Under the pieces are notes generated by a model. That model had not been told where the DNA came from. It ran no database searches and was given only the letters and a program-made list of their open reading frames with translations. From IMG/VR virus record IMGVR_UViG_3300028533_000484, positions 1 to 64,000 of that record: a stretch of 64,000 nucleotides of DNA. One strand, given 5' to 3'. Source of the stretch: a virus (lineage: Duplodnaviria; Caudoviricetes). Each line of letters starts with the position of its first letter. Within the stretch, counting starts at the first letter, position 1. This document shows positions 9,136-43,199 of the stretch, one piece after another. A program made the position numbers and the translations under genes.

Positions 9136-9172
9136 TTTCAAAGGCAGTTCTCGAAAAAAATACTGCCCGAAA
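9136..9172 (+). promoter_or_regulatory. Leader RNA stem abutting the RBS; fifth copy of the tRNA-cluster stem motif
   Basis: TTTC-AAA-GGCAGT-TCTCG..AT-ACTGCC-C-GAAA followed directly by GGAG. Confidence 0.7.
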
Positions 9173-9182
9173 GGAGAAAAAA

Positions 9183-11246
9183 ATGAATGTAAATCTTATT
9201 CGTTTGTTTCTTTGCGAAACAAAAGGCAATCAAGTTAATTACGCAAAAGTAGCTGATCGTGCAATTCGTGCTGGTTATATTGTTGAACCAGAAGCAGCAA
9301 CAGTTGATGTAATGAATTTCTTGAATGAGCAAACTCTCAATCCAAATGCTACATTCTACAAACAATGGGAAGATATTCTCTCTCGTACTCGTCTTAAGTT
9401 GGCAATTGACCAGGTTCGTCATTATGCTTCAACTTACGGTTCTATTGAACCTGAAAAAGCTCTCGGTGCAGTTTTGGTAGCAGGAAAAGAAAGCCTCAAT
9501 GTTGAATACAACTGCGAAGGAAATGGATGGGTTCCAAACGACAATCCAATTATTATGCCTTTTAAACAGTTCAAAGTTATTAAAGCAGTAACTGAGGACG
9601 AAGTAAAAGATAAAATCTTAGATTTGTTCCGTTCAGGTTCAGCTTTGAAATCTGACACAATCGATGTTTGTGTTTCGTTCTTGAAAGAGAATGGATTTCT
9701 CAGAATGCTCAACACTGACGAAATCAAAAACAAAGAAGCCCAAGCAACAATTGCTTGTATGACAAAGAACTATCCAACAGATGAATTTGGTTTACTTCGT
9801 TGCATTGTTTATACTTTTACTGGAAAGACAGCTTTAATCAAAGACCGTTCTACAATTTACACAATTGAAGGAAAGAACGGTTTTAGTCCAGTAAATAAAT
9901 TCGACTTTGCAATTCTTTCAGATAAACAGTTGACAAACTTGTCTCGTATCTTCTATCGTTACAAGCCATTGTTCCTTGCAATGAAGAAGTACTACGATAA
10001 CTCAAAATACATCAACAAGTTGCGTAGACTTGCTGAAAAGAATCATACACCTTTAAAGAAAGGTTTCTGGGAAGATTGTTTTAATACTTCAGAACGCGAT
10101 ACAAGTCAACTTTTAAATGAAGCAAGATCTAAGATTTCTGAATTGAACAACTTTAGAAAAGTTCAATTGATGCAGTCAATCATGGAACGTTTGAATGGAC
10201 GTAACATGGACGGTAAGTTGTACGTAATTCGTAACGGAAAGATGTTCGTTCGCGAAGGATATCAACCAAGAACAAATCAAGCTTATTTGATGGACTTGTA
10301 CAATGTTGTTAAAACATCACTTGTTGAAAGTTTGAAAGCAAAAGCAACAACTTTTGCAGTACCAAAGGGCTTACATCTTACATGCCCAACATCTGAAAAG
10401 AACTTTATCGGAAACTATCCAATAGGTACTTCTGTAGACTTCTCAGATTCAGACAACATTGTAGGTATCTACTGGCGTAACGAATGGGGTACAAGAGACT
10501 TCGACCTTCACGTAGTTACTGAAAATGGTCGCCAATATGGTTGGAGTGAAGCCTTCAAAAGTCCAGACCAGGATATCATCTACTCAGGTGATATGACAAA
10601 TGCAGATCCAGAAGCAGTAGAACTGTTCTACTTCAAGAGAGATATGCCAGATGGTTTCGTAAACGTAAACAAGTTTAACGGTAACGACAGCTCAAAACTT
10701 CGTTTGTTTGTTGCAAAAGAGAATATTGTTAGAAAGCTTGCTTCAGGAAAACAAGATTCTTGGAGATACAACAATCGCAATGACAGAAAGTTAGAGAACT
10801 ATATGGTTGATCCAAACAACATTGTTGCAGAAGCAATGTTGGATTTCTCAAATTGTTCTCAGAAGACAATTGCTTATATTCAAGATAATCGTTTATACAT
10901 CATGGCTTTGCAGTCAGGTAATGGTAGAGTTTCTACTAGAACAAATCAAGAAATTATTCAGCAAGCAAACAAAGTAAAAGCTGATTCTTATATTGATTTG
11001 GTATCGATTCTCGAAGAAGCTGGTTTCAAGAAAGTTGCCGAAGGACATACAGATGCAGTTACTGAAGCAAAAGAAGAAGTAACAAATGTTGATGTAACTG
11101 GACTTACAGCTGAAGAAGCAATTGCAAAAGTAAAAGCTGAATATGAAAGATTAGATGTTGTAAATGCAAAGAAGGATGAAGTCGTTGAAGTCGGTCTTGA
11201 CTTGACAAATCCTACACCAGATGTATTATTAAAGTTGTTTAATTAA
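9183..11246 (+). CDS. 687-aa protein with C-terminal TerD-like domain; candidate RNA-binding protein
   Basis: GIYW...DFDLH...GW...YSGDMTNA...E pattern resembles TerD-like domains; strong codon bias suggests high expression. Confidence 0.5.
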   Translation: MNVNLIRLFLCETKGNQVNYAKVADRAIRAGYIVEPEAATVDVMNFLNEQTLNPNATFYKQWEDILSRTRLKLAIDQVRHYASTYGSIEPEKALGAVLVAGKESLNVEYNCEGNGWVPNDNPIIMPFKQFKVIKAVTEDEVKDKILDLFRSGSALKSDTIDVCVSFLKENGFLRMLNTDEIKNKEAQATIACMTKNYPTDEFGLLRCIVYTFTGKTALIKDRSTIYTIEGKNGFSPVNKFDFAILSDKQLTNLSRIFYRYKPLFLAMKKYYDNSKYINKLRRLAEKNHTPLKKGFWEDCFNTSERDTSQLLNEARSKISELNNFRKVQLMQSIMERLNGRNMDGKLYVIRNGKMFVREGYQPRTNQAYLMDLYNVVKTSLVESLKAKATTFAVPKGLHLTCPTSEKNFIGNYPIGTSVDFSDSDNIVGIYWRNEWGTRDFDLHVVTENGRQYGWSEAFKSPDQDIIYSGDMTNADPEAVELFYFKRDMPDGFVNVNKFNGNDSSKLRLFVAKENIVRKLASGKQDSWRYNNRNDRKLENYMVDPNNIVAEAMLDFSNCSQKTIAYIQDNRLYIMALQSGNGRVSTRTNQEIIQQANKVKADSYIDLVSILEEAGFKKVAEGHTDAVTEAKEEVTNVDVTGLTAEEAIAKVKAEYERLDVVNAKKDEVVEVGLDLTNPTPDVLLKLFN

Positions 11247-40500: not shown

Positions 40501-41194
40501 GAGAGTAGAAATAATTAAAGCTGCTGATAAAAAACTAAAGGATGCTATCGAGACAGTTTTTGAAAAAAATCCTTTTTTAGATTCAAAAGAGTCATCTGCT
40601 TTTCCTGCGGAATGGATTTACAATATTACAGAAGAGCATCTAAAAACTCTATTCTTGGCAGTTAATGATAAATTAGATACAGTAAAAGTTGCCGAAAACC
40701 AGGATGAAACTTGTAAAGAGTTTGAAGCAAAAATGGAAGAGCTTCGCAAATTAGATACAGTTTTTGCAAATTGTTCTTGGAAGCCAAATAAAGATAAAAC
40801 ATTGCTTGATGCAGAGGTAGAATATTACTATGGTGAATGGAATTTTGCTGGACAAGTTGAACAAAATGGTAAAGAGTATTTTCTAGAGAAGCCTGAGGAT
40901 CTCTACGAATATTTAAAGACTCTTGCACAAGATTAATCTACAATTCTATACTAATTTTATAAAAATACCTTTTATCTTTCGGATGAAAGGTTGCTGTTCT
41001 CGTAAGATGCAGCGTAAAATTGCTTTTATGAAAGCTTTAAGTATTTACAGTGGTTACTTTTAAGTAGCAAAAAGCTTTCAACTTTTTTGAAGTTTTAAGA
41101 AAAGAAACACCTATATTATAAATGTTGATAGTTACAAATAAAGTAACTCGAAACATTTAAGTTCTTTGACACTATTAGGGATAGTTAATTTTTT

Positions 41195-41268
41195 AGGGCT
41201 ATAACTCAGTTGGCTAGAGTGTCAGCTTTGCAAGCTGAAGGTCGTGAGTTCAAATCTCACTAGTTCCA
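41195..41268 (+). tRNA. tRNA-Ala(TGC)
   Basis: Cloverleaf; TCAGC-TT-TGC-AA-GCTGA; G3:U70. Confidence 0.9.
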
Positions 41269-41282
41269 TTTCAAATAAATAA

Positions 41283-41518
41283 TCAGGGTGATATTCAGAA
41301 AACTTCACACTCGTAACAAAGAATCCTAATAAGATTAGGTAGGGCAGGATGGAGATAAATAAGGAAGCGTTGTTCACTTCTCGAAAATTAGCCCGACTCT
41401 TAAATGAGTCACCTTCATCAATTCTATTCAAGGTTGTAAAGCTCGTTAGAGTACCAGGAATAGGAAATCAGTTCAAGTATTACTTGAGCTACTGTAAAGA
41501 CAGAATTACGAACTATCT
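41283..41518 (+). ncRNA. Structured non-coding RNA with partial RNase P RNA-like features
   Basis: Multiple hairpins; AGAAAACTTCACACTC, ACTCGTAAC/GTTAGAGT pairing, GTAAA and AGACAGA motifs; no P4 partner found. Confidence 0.3.
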
Positions 41519-41590
41519 GGTCTGTTCGGCTAGTGGTTAGGCCACAAGGTTTTCATCCTTGTAGCACGGGTTCAATTCCCGTACAGACCT
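41519..41590 (+). tRNA. tRNA-Glu(TTC)
   Basis: Cloverleaf; CAAGG-TT-TTC-AT-CCTTG. Confidence 0.9.
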
Positions 41591-41591
41591 T

Positions 41592-41713
41592 ATCGCAGAA
41601 ATTGTTCCTATTAACTCGGTATCATAAACCAGTAGTCGAGGTTCGAATCCTCGGGTCCCCAATTTCGTGGGGATTTGGTGTAATGGTAGCACGCTATATA
41701 TACAATTCGCGAT
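41592..41713 (+). ncRNA. Stem-motif RNA 1 enclosing a circularly permuted tRNA (CAT anticodon)
   Basis: Order is anticodon arm, T arm (CGAGG-TTCGAAT-CCTCG), loop-closed acceptor (GGTCCCC..GGGGATT), D arm (GTGT..GCAC). Confidence 0.85.
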
Positions 41714-41719
41714 TTTTTT

Positions 41720-41803
41720 GGAAGTATGGATGAATTGGCAAAATCACCAACCTGCTAAGTTGGTTACCTTCGGGTAGTGCGTGGTCGGGACACGCTGCTT
41801 CCG
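41720..41803 (+). tRNA. tRNA-Ser(GCT) with atypical T-loop
   Basis: CCAAC-CT-GCT-AA-GTTGG; long variable arm; T-loop GTCGGGA. Confidence 0.8.
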
Positions 41804-42120
41804 CTAAAGCTAAGCTGTAAAAGTTCCCTACAGATTTAGCAACACTGTTTGACGGTATCAGGTGTAAAAGCTTTACACAAGTCAAAACCGAAAAGAGTAA
41901 TTTGCTTTTCAACTTTGATAAAAACCGGCCTTTCGTAAGCGCTTACGAATAAAAAAGGGAACACCTTTTTTGAATACAGTAATATAGACTTTTCTATATT
42001 GTAAAAAGTTGTGGCTATGCAACTTAAAAAGATACAACACTGCAGGAAGTCAGCTGTTTGACTTTGTTAACGTTGTTACATAGTGTTTGTGAGTTGCTGC
42101 AAACTGCAACTCCTTTTCAA

Positions 42121-42219
42121 CACTGTCTAGCAAAATACAGATAGGCGCGCGCTTATTGCTTATCTAGGATAATGTGCCATTGCGCGATGGAGGTCCAGGT
42201 TCGAGTCCTGGGGCAGTGA
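42121..42219 (+). tRNA. tRNA-like RNA with D-loop hairpin insertion and irregular anticodon arm
   Basis: Acceptor CACTGTC/GGCAGTG; T arm CCAGG-TTCGAGT-CCTGG; inserted helix AGATAGGCG/TGCTTATCT. Confidence 0.65.
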
Positions 42220-42288
42220 AAATCGATACTCGACGGAGTTCGATAGTAGGCGACCCATATCCGACGGGAGTGGTTGAATCGTCGAAGT

Positions 42289-42382
42289 GGCTTATTCGTC
42301 TAAGGTTGAGTAACGTCAACTAAAGGTAAGGACGCTGGTGTATATTCACCGGAAATGGTGAGTTCAATTCTCCCATAAGTTA
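42289..42382 (+). tRNA. tRNA-like RNA (Glu/Asp-type body) with D-loop hairpin insertion and 8-nt anticodon loop
   Basis: Acceptor GGCTTAT/ATAAGTT; D stem GTCT/GGAC with GTTGA/TCAAC insert; CTGGT-GTATATTC-ACCGG. Confidence 0.65.
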
Positions 42383-42391
42383 CATTTTTGT

Positions 42392-42448
42392 AGTGCATAA
42401 GTTGTTCCTATTGTAAAGAATGCTTTTGGTTTTTATACAACTCGCACT
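42392..42448 (+). ncRNA. Stem-motif RNA 2 (no tRNA cargo)
   Basis: AGTGC-ATA-AGTTGT-TCCTATT..AT-ACAACT-C-GCACT around a short loop. Confidence 0.75.
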
Positions 42449-42673
42449 TTTATTTTTAAGCTAAAACGGTCAAATAACATTAGCAAGCAAGACCTGTTGT
42501 CCGTTATCTGAAGGGTCTCTAAACAAGGTGTTAATGTGTATGACAATTTCTAGATCATGTCACGTGGCTTAAGGGATGAGCCCTTCACAAGGAGTAAGAG
42601 TCTCCGGAGTTATAGGATTAGAAATTGTAACGAAACAGCACCCTTTTGACAGAGGTTGTGATAGGACGTTTGT

Positions 42674-42747
42674 GGAGTTATGGAGCAGATGGTTAGCTCA
42701 GGTGACTGTCACTCACCAGGTCACGGGTTCGAGTCCCGTTAACTCCG
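42674..42747 (+). tRNA. tRNA-Asp(GTC)
   Basis: Cloverleaf; GGTGA-CT-GTC-AC-TCACC. Confidence 0.92.
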
Positions 42748-42808
42748 TACAAAAGTAGCATTAGTGGTTGCAAACACGAGGCTATTGTAGGAAATTCGAA
42801 ATTCCTAT

Positions 42809-42972
42809 CGATTATATGGTGTATGGGTGCACAGCCGGCCCGAGTACTTGACAATAAGGCCTGACGATAGCTTACGACCTGCATTAAGCAGACGACGGAG
42901 CGACAATAGGGCCTGACGATAAAGGAAACAGGTCGGCAGGGTGAGTTAAGGTTCGAGTCCTTCGTATAATTG
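42809..42972 (+). ncRNA. tRNA-like RNA whose anticodon arm is a ~100-nt rod
   Basis: Acceptor CGATTATA/TATAATTG; D arm GTGT/GCAC; helix GCCGGCC/GGTCGGC; T arm AAGG-TTCGAGT-CCTT; internal 20-nt direct repeat. Confidence 0.7.
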
Positions 42973-42979
42973 TATTTAC

Positions 42980-43052
42980 AGCGGGATAAAGCAGTTGGCA
43001 GCTTGCGAGCCCCATAAGCTCGATGTCGAAGGTTCGAGTCCTTCTCCCGCCA
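42980..43052 (+). tRNA. tRNA-Met(CAT), initiator-like 1:72 mismatch, C33
   Basis: AGCGGGA/TCCCGCC-A; CGAGC-CC-CAT-AA-GCTCG. Confidence 0.85.
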
Positions 43053-43057
43053 AAACA

Positions 43058-43181
43058 AACGCATAGGTTGTTCCTATTCTCAGAGTTGTCGAGTAGCTCA
43101 ATTTGGTAGAGCACTAGATATCTAATCTAGAGGTTGTGAGTTCGAATCTCACCTCAACGTCCATGATATACAACTCGCGTT
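43058..43181 (+). ncRNA. Stem-motif RNA 3 enclosing a normal-order tRNA
   Basis: AACGC-ATA-GGTTGT-TCCTATT..AT-ACAACT-C-GCGTT. Confidence 0.8.
43087..43163 (+). tRNA. tRNA-Arg(TCT)-like with A33 and encoded CCA, nested in stem-motif RNA 3
   Basis: CTAGA-TA-TCT-AA-TCTAG; GTGAG-TTCGAAT-CTCAC; ends TCCA. Confidence 0.75.
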
Positions 43182-43199
43182 CGATTTTAGAAAATTATT

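What the first reader, a model, noticed from the sequence alone, without database searches (positions are those of the whole stretch)
42809..42972. tRNA-like RNA whose anticodon arm is a rod with two symmetric GAC(A/G)AUA internal loops
Seen: acceptor, D and T arms are present, but the anticodon arm is about 100 nt and contains GACAATA-(A/G)GGCCT-GACGATA twice (42850-42869 and 42902-42921). The central hexamers can pair with each other, giving two equivalent 7x7 internal loops closed by CTT/AAG and GCTT/GAGC, capped by CTGC/GCAG. It has no tag ORF or G3:U70 as in tmRNA and is too short for a group I intron. Inference: a tRNA scaffold displaying two binding sites for a dimeric protein.
Basis: partly seen in the sequence, partly recalled or inferred. 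Interest (0 to 1): 0.75.

Follow-up and report, generated by a model that had tools for sequence, protein, structure and literature searches.

The report
tRNA-shaped phage RNA with symmetric rod
Huge phages from animal guts carry a conserved, undescribed small RNA gene that keeps a tRNA's body but has a 104-base stiff rod built from ribosomal-RNA-type motifs where the anticodon should be, so it cannot decode and most likely displays a two-fold symmetric docking site for a partner that is still unknown.

Summary
At 42810-42972 (+), inside a phage tRNA array, there are acceptor, D and T arms and a 104-nt "anticodon arm" (42834-42937). This arm holds the 20-mer GACAATA-RGGCCT-GACGATA twice. I found the same RNA in five lineages of huge-phage contigs (about 300-400 kb; 7 distinct sequences). 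Every helix except the central GGCC helix shows compensatory changes (rod: 96% of cells paired, 14 of 26 pairs changed on both sides, 0 of 500 shuffles as good).

The unpaired "loops" are almost invariant and match known RNA 3D motifs. One is AGUA/GAA (sarcin-ricin type). Two are 7x7 loops with the GA...UA/GA...UA frame of bacterial 5S rRNA loop E, and their centre is always A opposite G. A structured 5' domain of about 55 nt belongs to the RNA too.

It matches no Rfam family, has no conserved anticodon and shows no spliced form, so it is not an intron-bearing tRNA.

Best reading (about 45%): a naturally tRNA-scaffolded, two-fold symmetric binding platform. No partner was found, and the RNA is not tightly linked to the Rsr/Ro60-like or beta-CASP RNase genes.

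In kind it joins the phage tRNA-cluster stable RNAs (T4 species 1 and 2). This scan had already flagged the family on other DNA.

The parts
42754..42786 (+). 5' domain, first stem-loop. The outer stem is 42754-42759 with 42781-42786. The inner hairpin is 42764-42766 with 42775-42777, with loop GUUGCAAA.
   Evidence: The outer stem covaries (UAGC/GCUA in the window, UGGU/ACCA in L057, GGCA/UGCU in L062). The hairpin loop GUUSSAAA is conserved. This element directly follows tRNA-Asp.
42790..42805 (+). 5' domain, second hairpin: GGAA/UUCC with loop AUUCGAAA, ending 4 nt before the tRNA-like 5' end.
   Evidence: RNAalifold columns 2-7 with 16-21: 3 of 6 pairs have compensatory changes (GGAA/UUCC, GAGCA/UGCUC, GGGGAA/UUCCCC).
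42810..42816 (+). Acceptor stem, 5' strand (GAUUAUA). C42809 can add an eighth pair with G42972.
   Evidence: It pairs with 42965-42971 and is compensatory in 5 of 7 pairs. At a relaxed threshold ARAGORN frames the tRNA at 42810-42972.
42817..42833 (+). U8, G9, D arm (stem GUGU/GCAC, loop AUGGGU carrying GG) and A26.
   Evidence: The D stem is invariant in all 7 sequences. GG is in the D loop in 6 of 7.
42834..42840 (+). Rod, proximal 7-bp stem, 5' strand (the position of an anticodon stem).
   Evidence: It pairs with 42931-42937. Six of 7 pairs change on both sides. Three lineages have a G.G mismatch at the third pair.
42841..42849 (+). Internal loop strand CGAGUA (invariant AGUA) plus the 3-bp helix CUU.
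   Evidence: AGUA (A2 columns 11-14) and the opposite GAA (columns 93-95) are invariant. The 3-bp helix covaries in all 3 pairs.
42850..42869 (+). First 20-mer: loop strand GACAAUA, helix strand AGGCCU, loop strand GACGAUA.
   Evidence: Invariant except R at each loop centre and R/Y at the helix ends.
42870..42901 (+). Distal part of the rod: 4-bp helix GCUU/GAGC, internal loop ACGAC/ACGACG, cap helix CUGC/GCAG and pentaloop AUUAA.
   Evidence: The 4-bp helix and the cap covary (GCUU/GAGC, ACUU/GGGU, GUCU/GGAC; CUGC/GCAG, CUGG/CCAG, CUAGC/GCUAG). The loop letters ACGA and GACG are invariant.
42902..42921 (+). Second 20-mer: GACAAUA, GGGCCU, GACGAUA. It pairs with the first through the RGGCCY hexamers.
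   Evidence: The central helix is 100% paired, with GGCC invariant.
42922..42937 (+). 3' strands of the rod base: AAG, loop strand GAAACA (invariant GAA), and stem GGUCGGC.
42938..42972 (+). Variable region (invariant AGG at its start), T arm (stem 42948-51 with 42959-62, loop UUCGAGU), acceptor 3' strand 42965-42971 and discriminator G42972. No CCA is encoded.
   Evidence: The T loop UUCRANU is kept in all sequences and the T stem covaries. tRNA-Met starts 8 nt downstream.

Best explanation
The gene encodes a non-decoding, tRNA-shaped stable RNA of huge gut phages.

Shown:
- It is a conserved structured RNA of about 163 nt, plus a structured 5' domain of about 55 nt.
- Its tRNA body (acceptor, T arm, D arm, core) is kept only as a shape.
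- Its anticodon arm is a 104-nt rod. The rod's helices drift by compensatory change, while its internal-loop letters and the central GGCC helix are frozen.

Inferred:
- The tRNA body is a scaffold. It lets the host's tRNA enzymes (RNase P, 3' trimming, CCA addition, T-loop modification) cut the RNA out of the polycistronic tRNA transcript and stabilise it. Engineered tRNA scaffolds work this way.
- The rod stacks on the D stem as one long irregular helix made of recurrent rRNA-type motifs. These are a sarcin-ricin-type AGUA/GAA turn followed by two loop-E-type 7x7 stacks of non-Watson-Crick pairs, one on each side of a palindromic 6-bp helix.
- This two-fold symmetric surface is the working part. 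It is read sequence-specifically by a partner, most simply a homodimer or two copies of one RNA-binding protein of the host or the phage. The RNA either sequesters that partner or brings it to the tRNA and RNA-quality-control machinery encoded around it.

The partner and the direction of the effect are unknown.
For: - Real and conserved: 7 distinct sequences in 5 lineages, all inside tRNA arrays of contigs of 300-400 kb.
- One copy per genome in G000 and in the complete 300,878-bp G001.
- Structure: 24 of 49 pairs are compensatory over the whole RNA. For the rod, 96.2% of cells pair, 14 of 26 pairs change on both sides, and 0 of 500 shuffles match this.
- Strain variants in sequencing runs (42836 C>T, 42857 A>G, 42969 A>G) all turn a Watson-Crick pair into G.U.
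- Recognition signature: the loop strands GACRAUA (x4), AGUA, GAA, ACGA/GACG and GGCC are invariant, while the adjacent helices change.
- Motif identity: E. coli 5S rRNA loop E reads GAUGGUA/GAGAGUA. This is the same 7x7 GA...UA/GA...UA frame. That site binds protein L25 (PMC4408793).
- The loop centre is A opposite G in 14 of 14 cells, with two independent A/G swaps (L062 in loop 1; L004 and L003 in loop 2). The loops are therefore paired stacks, not floppy bubbles.
- Scaffold role: the acceptor and T stems differ completely between lineages but still pair, and the T loop and core AGG are kept.
- The RNA sits 8 nt before tRNA-Met and 60 nt after tRNA-Asp on the same strand.
- Not decoding: there is no 7-nt loop with U33. 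ARAGORN proposes different anticodons in different homologs.
Against: - No partner was identified.
- No protein gene is shared by the neighbourhoods of all lineages.
- G000 and G001 share only 34 ORFs, none of them an obvious RNA-binding dimer.
- Phages with the Rsr/Ro60-like gene (4 complete genomes) or the beta-CASP RNase (one genome 88% complete) lack the RNA.
- Neither G000 nor G001 encodes L25 or RNase III.
- Exact two-fold symmetry is broken at the loop centres in the L062 and L004 lineages.
- Invariant loops could equally serve RNA-RNA contacts or cleavage.
- The conserved 5' domain would be cut off if RNase P acts at 42810, which the scaffold idea does not explain.
- I have no direct evidence of the RNA's ends or abundance. 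The sequencing runs gave contigs only.
Confidence: 0.45

Rival explanations
1. Decoy or adaptor acting through its tRNA body. The RNA engages tRNA-handling machinery such as RNase P, the CCA-adding enzyme, modification enzymes, EF-Tu, the ribosome, or host anti-phage tRNA nucleases. The rod is a stiff spacer or blocker rather than the recognised surface.
For: The full tRNA elbow and core are kept in all lineages. The gene lies among tRNAs, a tmRNA and tRNA-like Y RNAs. Bacterial YrlA RNAs with tRNA-like domains are handled by tRNA enzymes (PMC4201824).
Against: A spacer would not need frozen loop letters and a frozen GGCC helix. The acceptor sequence and the discriminator differ between lineages (G, A, U), so there is no conserved aminoacylation identity. 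The D-loop GG is lost in the L003 lineage.
Confidence: 0.15
2. Processing substrate. The symmetric rod is a cleavage site for a dimeric double-strand-specific endonuclease (host RNase III or Mini-III type, or a phage enzyme). That enzyme would cut at or near the dyad in the GGCC helix and release the distal hairpin of about 52 nt, or inactivate the RNA.
For: The recognised segment is two-fold symmetric and spans about 20 stacked pairs, with internal loops that could fix the cut site. Both rod-bearing genomes encode a beta-CASP/RMMBL ribonuclease that is 54% identical between them.
Against: No shortened or joined form appears in any assembled run; this is weak evidence because only contigs were available. 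G000 and G001 encode no RNase III or archaeal-type splicing endonuclease. A relative with the beta-CASP RNase lacks the RNA. The distal hairpin is less conserved than the loops, which is odd for a product.
Confidence: 0.12
3. RNA-only assembly. Because the two 20-mers are the same self-complementary strand, two or more molecules could swap strands (first 20-mer with first 20-mer, second with second). This would build dimers or larger bodies, as shown for the ornate phage-linked RNAs ROOL and GOLLD.
For: The centre is a palindrome (RGGCCY) and the two strands are identical. ROOL and GOLLD lie next to tRNAs in phages and self-assemble (bioRxiv 10.1101/2024.12.08.627333, abstract seen).
Against: Intramolecular pairing is favoured by proximity. 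Covariation cannot tell the two modes apart. The RNA is 4-5 times smaller than ROOL or GOLLD. Nothing was measured.
Confidence: 0.1
4. Intron-bearing tRNA whose insert of about 100 nt is removed to give a working tRNA.
For: The insert sits where tRNA introns sit. It is symmetric, which superficially recalls the archaeal bulge-helix-bulge signal.
Against: With introns allowed, ARAGORN finds nothing at its default threshold. At a relaxed threshold it gives Val, Leu, Ser or Thr for different homologs. No U33 or 7-nt loop can be assembled. The 7-bp stem runs straight into the rod. No splicing endonuclease was found in G000-G003, and no RtcB in G000, the only record searched for it. No joint across the rod appears in RNA or DNA runs. 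The insert is far too short for a group I intron and gives no Rfam intron match.
Confidence: 0.03
5. DNA-level element. On this view the 13-bp-spaced GAC... units are iterons or operators for a DNA-binding protein that happen to lie inside a decayed tRNA gene.
For: GAC recurs every 13 nt along the rod (42850, 42863, 42876, 42902, 42915). Unrelated contigs carry 13-bp tandem repeats of GACGATAGGGCCY.
Against: Compensatory changes in five helices, and the A-opposite-G rule across the loops, only make sense for RNA pairing. The tandem-repeat hits are selected by the shape of the search pattern itself.
Confidence: 0.02

Closest known systems
Bacteriophage T4 species 1 and species 2 RNAs (rnaC, rnaD), and similar small stable RNAs in phage tRNA clusters
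   Same: They are encoded at the end of the phage tRNA cluster on the tRNA strand (NC_000866 annotation). T4 rnaC folds with an acceptor-like stem, a canonical T arm (GGGUUCGAAUCCC) and long extra arms instead of a decoding arm. They are non-decoding and their function is unknown.
   Different: There is no sequence or model similarity: the rod model finds nothing in the T4 cluster above 9.4 bits. T4 rnaC has no repeated 20-mer, no symmetric double 7x7 loop and a different arm layout. The host range and phage clade also differ.
Bacterial loop E of 5S rRNA (the L25/CTC binding site)
   Same: It is a symmetric 7x7 internal loop whose two strands both read GA-NNN-UA and have a purine-purine centre. 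E. coli has GAUGGUA/GAGAGUA; here the strands are GACAAUA/GACGAUA. It is flanked by Watson-Crick helices and followed by a short capped helix. In 5S rRNA it is a protein-binding site (PMC4408793).
   Different: The three central pairs differ (C.A, A.G, A.C instead of U.G, G.A, G.G). Here there are two copies in mirror arrangement, set in a tRNA-shaped RNA. The geometry is inferred from sequence only. Binding of L25 was not tested and none of the five phage records searched (G000, G001, G002, G004, G005) encodes L25.
Sarcin-ricin / bulged-G (eukaryal loop E) motif
   Same: The invariant 5'-AGUA-3' lies opposite an invariant 5'-GAA-3', directly next to a Watson-Crick pair. This is the textbook consensus of that motif, cited here from my own knowledge.
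   Different: The assignment rests on sequence pattern and conservation alone. No structure or probing is available.
YrlA / bacterial Y RNAs (Rfam RF02553), partners of Rsr/Ro60
   Same: They are tRNA-like, non-decoding RNAs. YrlA-like genes lie beside this RNA in three lineages (window 43217-43338, L004 6241-6373, L038 1045-1168). An Rsr-like TROVE gene lies in the same array in L004 and L003.
   Different: The topology is the opposite. In YrlA the ends lie in the stem at the anticodon position and the acceptor is closed by a loop (PMC4201824). Here the acceptor is open and the anticodon arm is closed. There is no YrlA match on the element and no GNCGAA motif. Rsr-bearing relatives lack the rod RNA.
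tmRNA tRNA-like domain with its long helix 2
   Same: An acceptor and T arm joined to a long irregular helix in place of the anticodon arm. It is also phage-encoded in these arrays.
   Different: There is no G3:U70, no tag reading frame, no pseudoknots, a full D arm, and no Rfam tmRNA match. The related phages L004 and L057 carry a separate normal tmRNA.
Engineered tRNA scaffolds for recombinant RNA (an insert replacing the anticodon stem-loop)
   Same: The design principle is the same. The cargo helix is grafted on the anticodon stem, and the tRNA body gives processing and stability (my own knowledge of the method).
   Different: That is a laboratory device. Here the arrangement is natural and conserved by selection.

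Membership tests
Canonical tRNA (Rfam RF00005) | Cloverleaf with a 5-bp anticodon stem and a 7-nt loop (U33, anticodon, purine 37); scores above the family threshold. | tested here: not met
   No tRNA match even at E<=10 on 42745-42985. ARAGORN makes no call. The stem has 7 bp and continues into a 104-nt rod.
Canonical tRNA (Rfam RF00005) | Acceptor stem, D arm with GG, T arm with a UUCRANU loop, U8, and core purines 44-46. | tested here: met
   All are present in the window and kept or covarying in homologs. Exceptions: C8 in L062, and the GG is lost in L003.
Intron-bearing tRNA (bacterial group I or archaeal bulge-helix-bulge type) | Removing the insert gives a normal anticodon arm with the same anticodon in homologs, and a matching splicing system is present. 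| tested here: not met
   ARAGORN with introns gives nothing at default and discordant anticodons at 80% threshold. No EndA was found in G000-G003, and no RtcB in G000, the only record searched for it. No joined reads. No intron family match.
tmRNA (RF00023) | G3:U70 alanine identity, a tag ORF ending in a stop, and pseudoknots. | tested here: not met
   U3-A70, no ORF, no ARAGORN or Rfam tmRNA call.
YrlA / Y RNA (RF02553) | The ends pair in a Ro-binding stem with a GNCGAA-type motif; the tRNA-like domain has a loop-closed acceptor; the RNA is encoded near Rsr. | tested here: not met
   No match on the element. The topology is the opposite. Rsr-like genes are near it only in the L004 and L003 lineages and are absent from the own 140-kb fragment. 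Rsr-bearing relatives lack it.
Bacterial loop E motif | A symmetric 7x7 internal loop with both strands 5'-GA...UA-3', giving terminal sheared G.A and A.U Hoogsteen-type pairs and a purine-purine centre. | tested here: met
   The sequence frame is identical to E. coli 5S rRNA. The centre is A opposite G in 14 of 14 cells, with two swaps.
Bacterial loop E motif | The actual non-Watson-Crick pair geometry and the cross-strand stacking. | not testable with these tools
   This needs probing or a 3D structure.
Phage tRNA-cluster small stable RNAs (T4 rnaC/rnaD type) | A non-decoding RNA gene inside a phage tRNA cluster, on the same strand, with tRNA-like end structures. | tested here: met
   Window array, T4 annotation and fold. 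This is a functional class, not a homology family; no sequence relation was found.
Any Rfam 15 family | A covariance-model match. | tested here: not met
   Gathering-threshold scan of the window. E<=10 scans of 40900-43600 and 42745-42985 show nothing on the element.

The most novel reading that the evidence does not exclude
The rod is a phage-made molecular mimic of a cellular RNA site: a tandem, mirror-image copy of the 5S rRNA loop-E arm. Delivered on a tRNA chassis, it would capture two copies of a host loop-E-binding factor (bL25/CTC-type, or a defence or stress protein that reads such motifs). This would be an RNA decoy that rewires host ribosome biogenesis, stress response or immunity during infection by huge phages.
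Probability: 0.12. Interest if true: 0.85.

Novelty: new variant of a known kind. Interest (0 to 1): 0.6.

Why it matters
- Phage tRNA clusters have been known since T4 to hold stable RNAs that are not tRNAs, and their roles are still open after fifty years.
- This family offers an unusually legible example. The tRNA chassis, the cargo and the recognised surface can be told apart from sequence alone.
- The cargo is built from motifs whose 3D structures and protein partners are known from the ribosome. That makes concrete tests possible, such as EMSA with L25/CTC, pull-downs, RNase P and RNase III assays, and a small crystal or cryo-EM target.
- If the partner is a host factor, this would be an RNA-based takeover or counter-defence device of huge gut phages.
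- It is also a natural precedent for the engineered tRNA-scaffold strategy.
- For annotation, it adds a covariance-supported family that is missing from Rfam. Current tools either miss it or could mis-call it as a tRNA with an intron.

Tried and rejected
1. Rfam: no family on the element at the gathering threshold or at E<=10.
2. Intron-tRNA reading: rejected.
3. Hammerhead reading: CUGACGA fits CUGANGA and a GAAA is present, but the order of helices does not fit and there is no Rfam hit. Rejected by inspection.
4. K-turn reading: there is no 3-nt bulge, and UA rather than GA abuts the helix. Rejected by inspection.
5. Relaxed two-copy patterns with a free central hexamer found only the known loci plus unrelated 13-nt tandem repeats (L005-L008, L115).
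6. A pattern for a shorter cousin with a single loop E gave only chance hits in coding repeats.
7. The genome-contig scan gave 29 single hits and no two-copy locus. The rod model then hit only a 13-nt tandem repeat (L088). No representative prokaryote genome holds the RNA.
8. Partner hunt:
   - TROVE and RtcB are absent from the own fragment.
   - L25, RNase III and EndA are absent from every record searched, G000 and G001 among them.
   - A 165-aa ORF shared by L004 and L062 at 88% identity is absent from G000.
   - Neighbourhood all-against-all comparison gave only spurious hits across RNA genes.
   - Profiling G000 and G001 against G004-G006 was not discriminating, because the latter are another clade.
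   - Beta-CASP RNase relatives lack the RNA.
9. Sequencing runs, contigs only:
   - Two RNA-library contigs and one DNA contig run colinear through the element, which does not prove transcription.
   - In run X6 the contigs stop at 42809 and resume at 42850 (after 30 unplaced letters), leaving 42810-42849 uncovered. This is one study at low depth and counts as no evidence for a cut.
   - The runs that hold sizeable shares come from animal gut or faeces, a hint of habitat only.
10. The promoter and terminator scan gave nothing above shuffles.
11. The single-sequence fold z-score is only -1.94, so thermodynamics alone would not have carried the case.

Full report
**Setting.** The window is the first 64 kb of a 140,446-bp IMG/VR virus record. 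CheckV puts that record at 35% complete, so the source is a huge phage. The finding lies on the + strand inside a tRNA array at 41194-43484. It sits 60 nt after tRNA-Asp and 8 nt before tRNA-Met(CAT).

**Observation.**
- The 20-mer GACAATARGGCCTGACGATA occurs exactly twice, at 42850 and 42902. Even with 3 mismatches it occurs nowhere else, and shuffles give none.
Its z-score is only -1.94, so the single sequence proves little.
- Neither ARAGORN nor Rfam calls anything here, even at E<=10 on a 241-nt slice.

**Homologs.**
- An exact-pattern scan of IMG/VR found the pair of 20-mers in three further viral contigs.
- A slightly relaxed pattern in the metagenome collection found twelve more two-copy loci and one truncated one.
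- These collapse to seven distinct sequences in five lineages: the window; L038 (402,886-bp contig); L014/L057/L058 with the variant L042; L062 (326,542-bp contig, the most divergent); and L004 (a complete 300,878-bp genome with terminal repeats) with L003.
- All lie in large tRNA arrays.
- Single-copy pattern hits are chance matches or unrelated 13-nt tandem repeats.
- No representative prokaryote genome carries the RNA.
- Earlier notes of this scan show that first readers flagged the same family on another genome (e1-5482449) and this same stretch again (e1-5746575).

**Structure.**
- For the rod alone, 96.2% of cells pair and 14 of 26 pairs change on both sides. None of 500 column shuffles reaches these values, and sliding the partners by 1-3 columns drops pairing to 31-53%.
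- The proximal 7-bp stem, the 3-bp helix, the 4-bp helix and the cap all covary. The central RGGCCY helix is always paired, but its GGCC is invariant.
- The acceptor and T stems differ almost completely between lineages yet stay paired. The T loop stays UUCRANU. The D stem GUGU/GCAC and the AGG that opens the variable region are invariant.
- Strain variants seen in sequencing runs (42836 C>T, 42857 A>G, 42969 A>G) each convert a Watson-Crick pair to G.U.

**What the loops are.** The unpaired letters are the most conserved part of the RNA.
1. At the base of the rod, an invariant AGUA faces an invariant GAA directly beside a Watson-Crick pair. This is the consensus of the sarcin-ricin (bulged-G) motif, cited from my own knowledge.
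2. Each 7x7 loop has both strands reading GA-C-R-A-UA. E. coli 5S rRNA, read from NC_000913.3, has loop E strands GAUGGUA and GAGAGUA. That is the same symmetric GA...UA/GA...UA frame, and it is the L25 binding site (PMC4408793).
3. The central position of each loop is A opposite G in all 14 cells. The orientation swapped independently in L062 (loop 1) and in L004/L003 (loop 2). This is covariation of a non-Watson-Crick pair.
4. A third loop, ACGAC/AYGACG, precedes the cap.

The rod is therefore best seen as one continuous irregular helix, not a chain of bubbles. Its core (loop, 6-bp palindrome, loop) is made of two near-identical strands and so has two-fold symmetry.

**A 5' domain.** The 60 nt between tRNA-Asp and the tRNA-like 5' end are filled by two elements.
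- The first is a covarying outer stem enclosing a hairpin with loop GUUGCAAA (GUUCGAAA in L062).
- The second is a hairpin with loop RUUCGAAA, ending 2-4 nt before the acceptor.
- The L004 lineage has two hairpins at the same place with different loops.

**Not a decoding or spliced tRNA.**
- No 7-nt loop with U33 can be formed.
- ARAGORN with introns allowed finds nothing at default. At an 80% threshold it frames the tRNA at 42810-42972 but assigns Val, Leu, Ser or Thr anticodons to different homologs.
- No archaeal-type splicing endonuclease is encoded in the rod-bearing records (G000-G003), and no RtcB in the own record, the only one searched for it.
- No assembled read set shows a joint across the rod.
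- The acceptor has no G3:U70. The discriminator differs between lineages, so a conserved aminoacylation identity is unlikely.

**Context and the partner hunt.**
- The array also holds Y-RNA-like units. Rfam YrlA gives full-length sub-threshold matches at window 43217-43338, L004 6241-6373, L038 1045-1168 and L047 1190-1308.
- In L004 and L003 a 558-aa TROVE (Rsr/Ro60-like) protein is encoded in the same array.
- However, the rod model R1 finds exactly one copy in G000 and one in G001. It finds none in 13 other loci with the Rsr-like gene or in five of their whole records, four of them complete.
- A beta-CASP/RMMBL RNase is shared by G000 and G001 at 54% identity. A relative that has it and is 88% complete lacks the RNA.
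- Neither phage encodes L25 or RNase III.
- No ORF is common to all neighbourhoods.
- The partner, if it is a protein, may therefore be host-encoded or an unrecognised phage protein.

**Interpretation.**
- Shown: a conserved, structured, non-decoding tRNA-shaped RNA with a frozen, symmetric, motif-rich surface on a drifting scaffold.
- Inferred, at about 45%: the tRNA body serves excision and stability, and the rod is a sequence-specifically read two-fold platform.
- Rivals: action through the tRNA body (0.15), a nuclease substrate (0.12), RNA-only assembly through strand swapping (0.10), intron-bearing tRNA (0.03) and DNA repeats (0.02).

**Comparison with what is known.**
- In kind, it belongs with the small stable RNAs of phage tRNA clusters.
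- I fetched them and folded them. rnaC has an acceptor-like stem, a canonical T arm and long extra arms.
- There is no similarity to the rod model.
- Another note (e1-5642174) describes a shorter tRNA mimic with a loop-E arm in another giant gut-type phage. My loop-E reading was reached independently and agrees with it. I could not compare the sequences.
- The family is absent from Rfam 15. I found no paper describing it, within the limits of word searches.

**Verdict.** It is a new structural variant within a known but unexplained kind of phage RNA. The function is not established.

Noticed in passing
window 41592-41713, 42392-42460, 43058-43190, 43200-43338: Four units are bounded by TGTTCCTATT and TATACAACTCGC, forming a bulged closing stem followed by a T run. 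Two of them wrap circularly permuted tRNA-like domains (3' half, closing loop, 5' half). One wraps tRNA-Arg(TCT), and one is short. Rfam YrlA (Y RNA-like) matches 43217-43338 over its full length at 34 bits, below the 69-bit threshold. They look like a phage Y-RNA family. No TROVE gene was found in the 140-kb fragment.
   Followed up: partly
L004 9996-11672 (G001:C1 about 145.8-147.5 kb); L003/L009: A 558-aa TROVE-domain (Rsr/Ro60-like) protein is encoded inside the tRNA array of the related complete 300-kb phage. Homologs at 54-60% identity occur in at least 13 other large viral contigs.
   Followed up: partly
window 9136-9182 and ORF 9183-11246: A stem resembling the Y-like closing stem lies over the ribosome-binding site of a 687-aa ORF that has no Pfam match and no similarity to the TROVE protein. 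It could be the binding protein of the Y-like stems regulating itself.
   Followed up: partly
window 41804-42673: An 870-nt stretch of the array has no called tRNA and no long ORF, but it contains T-arm-like hairpins (about 42185-42215 and 42352-42375). Part of it (41839-42066) is similar to L057 8947-9144 and L062 7084-7245. The related arrays in L004 and L057 carry a tmRNA, and none is called in the window. This may be further conserved non-coding RNA.
   Followed up: no
L004 7903-7975; L047 2838-2910: A tRNA with anticodon UUA (it would read the UAA stop codon) lies in the arrays of the L004 and L003 lineages.
   Followed up: no
L088 1443-1505; L041, L059, L025, L034, L060 (metagenome loci): Unrelated, mostly high-GC bacterial contigs carry short tandem arrays of a 13-bp unit GAC(A/G)ATA(A/G)GGCCN. 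These are the same letters as the rod's repeat unit. They are probably picked out by the shape of my search pattern, but the recurrence is odd.
   Followed up: partly
window 43226-43305 (run X6): One RNA-library contig joins 43305 back to 43226 with GTT between. That is the order of a normal, unpermuted tRNA built from the two halves of the permuted unit. Depth over 43213-43274 is very high in all runs, so this probably comes from an ordinary tRNA of another organism.
   Followed up: no
G000:C1 126766-128163; 101522-102103 and 123116-123739: Beyond the window, the phage encodes a beta-CASP/RMMBL ribonuclease (54% identical to that of G001) and two thymidine kinase paralogs, one of them 72% identical to G001's.
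   Followed up: partly
L004 6702-7199; L062 5888-6385: A 165-aa ORF without a Pfam match, 88% identical between the two phages, sits inside their tRNA arrays. It is absent from G000, G004 and G005.
   Followed up: partly
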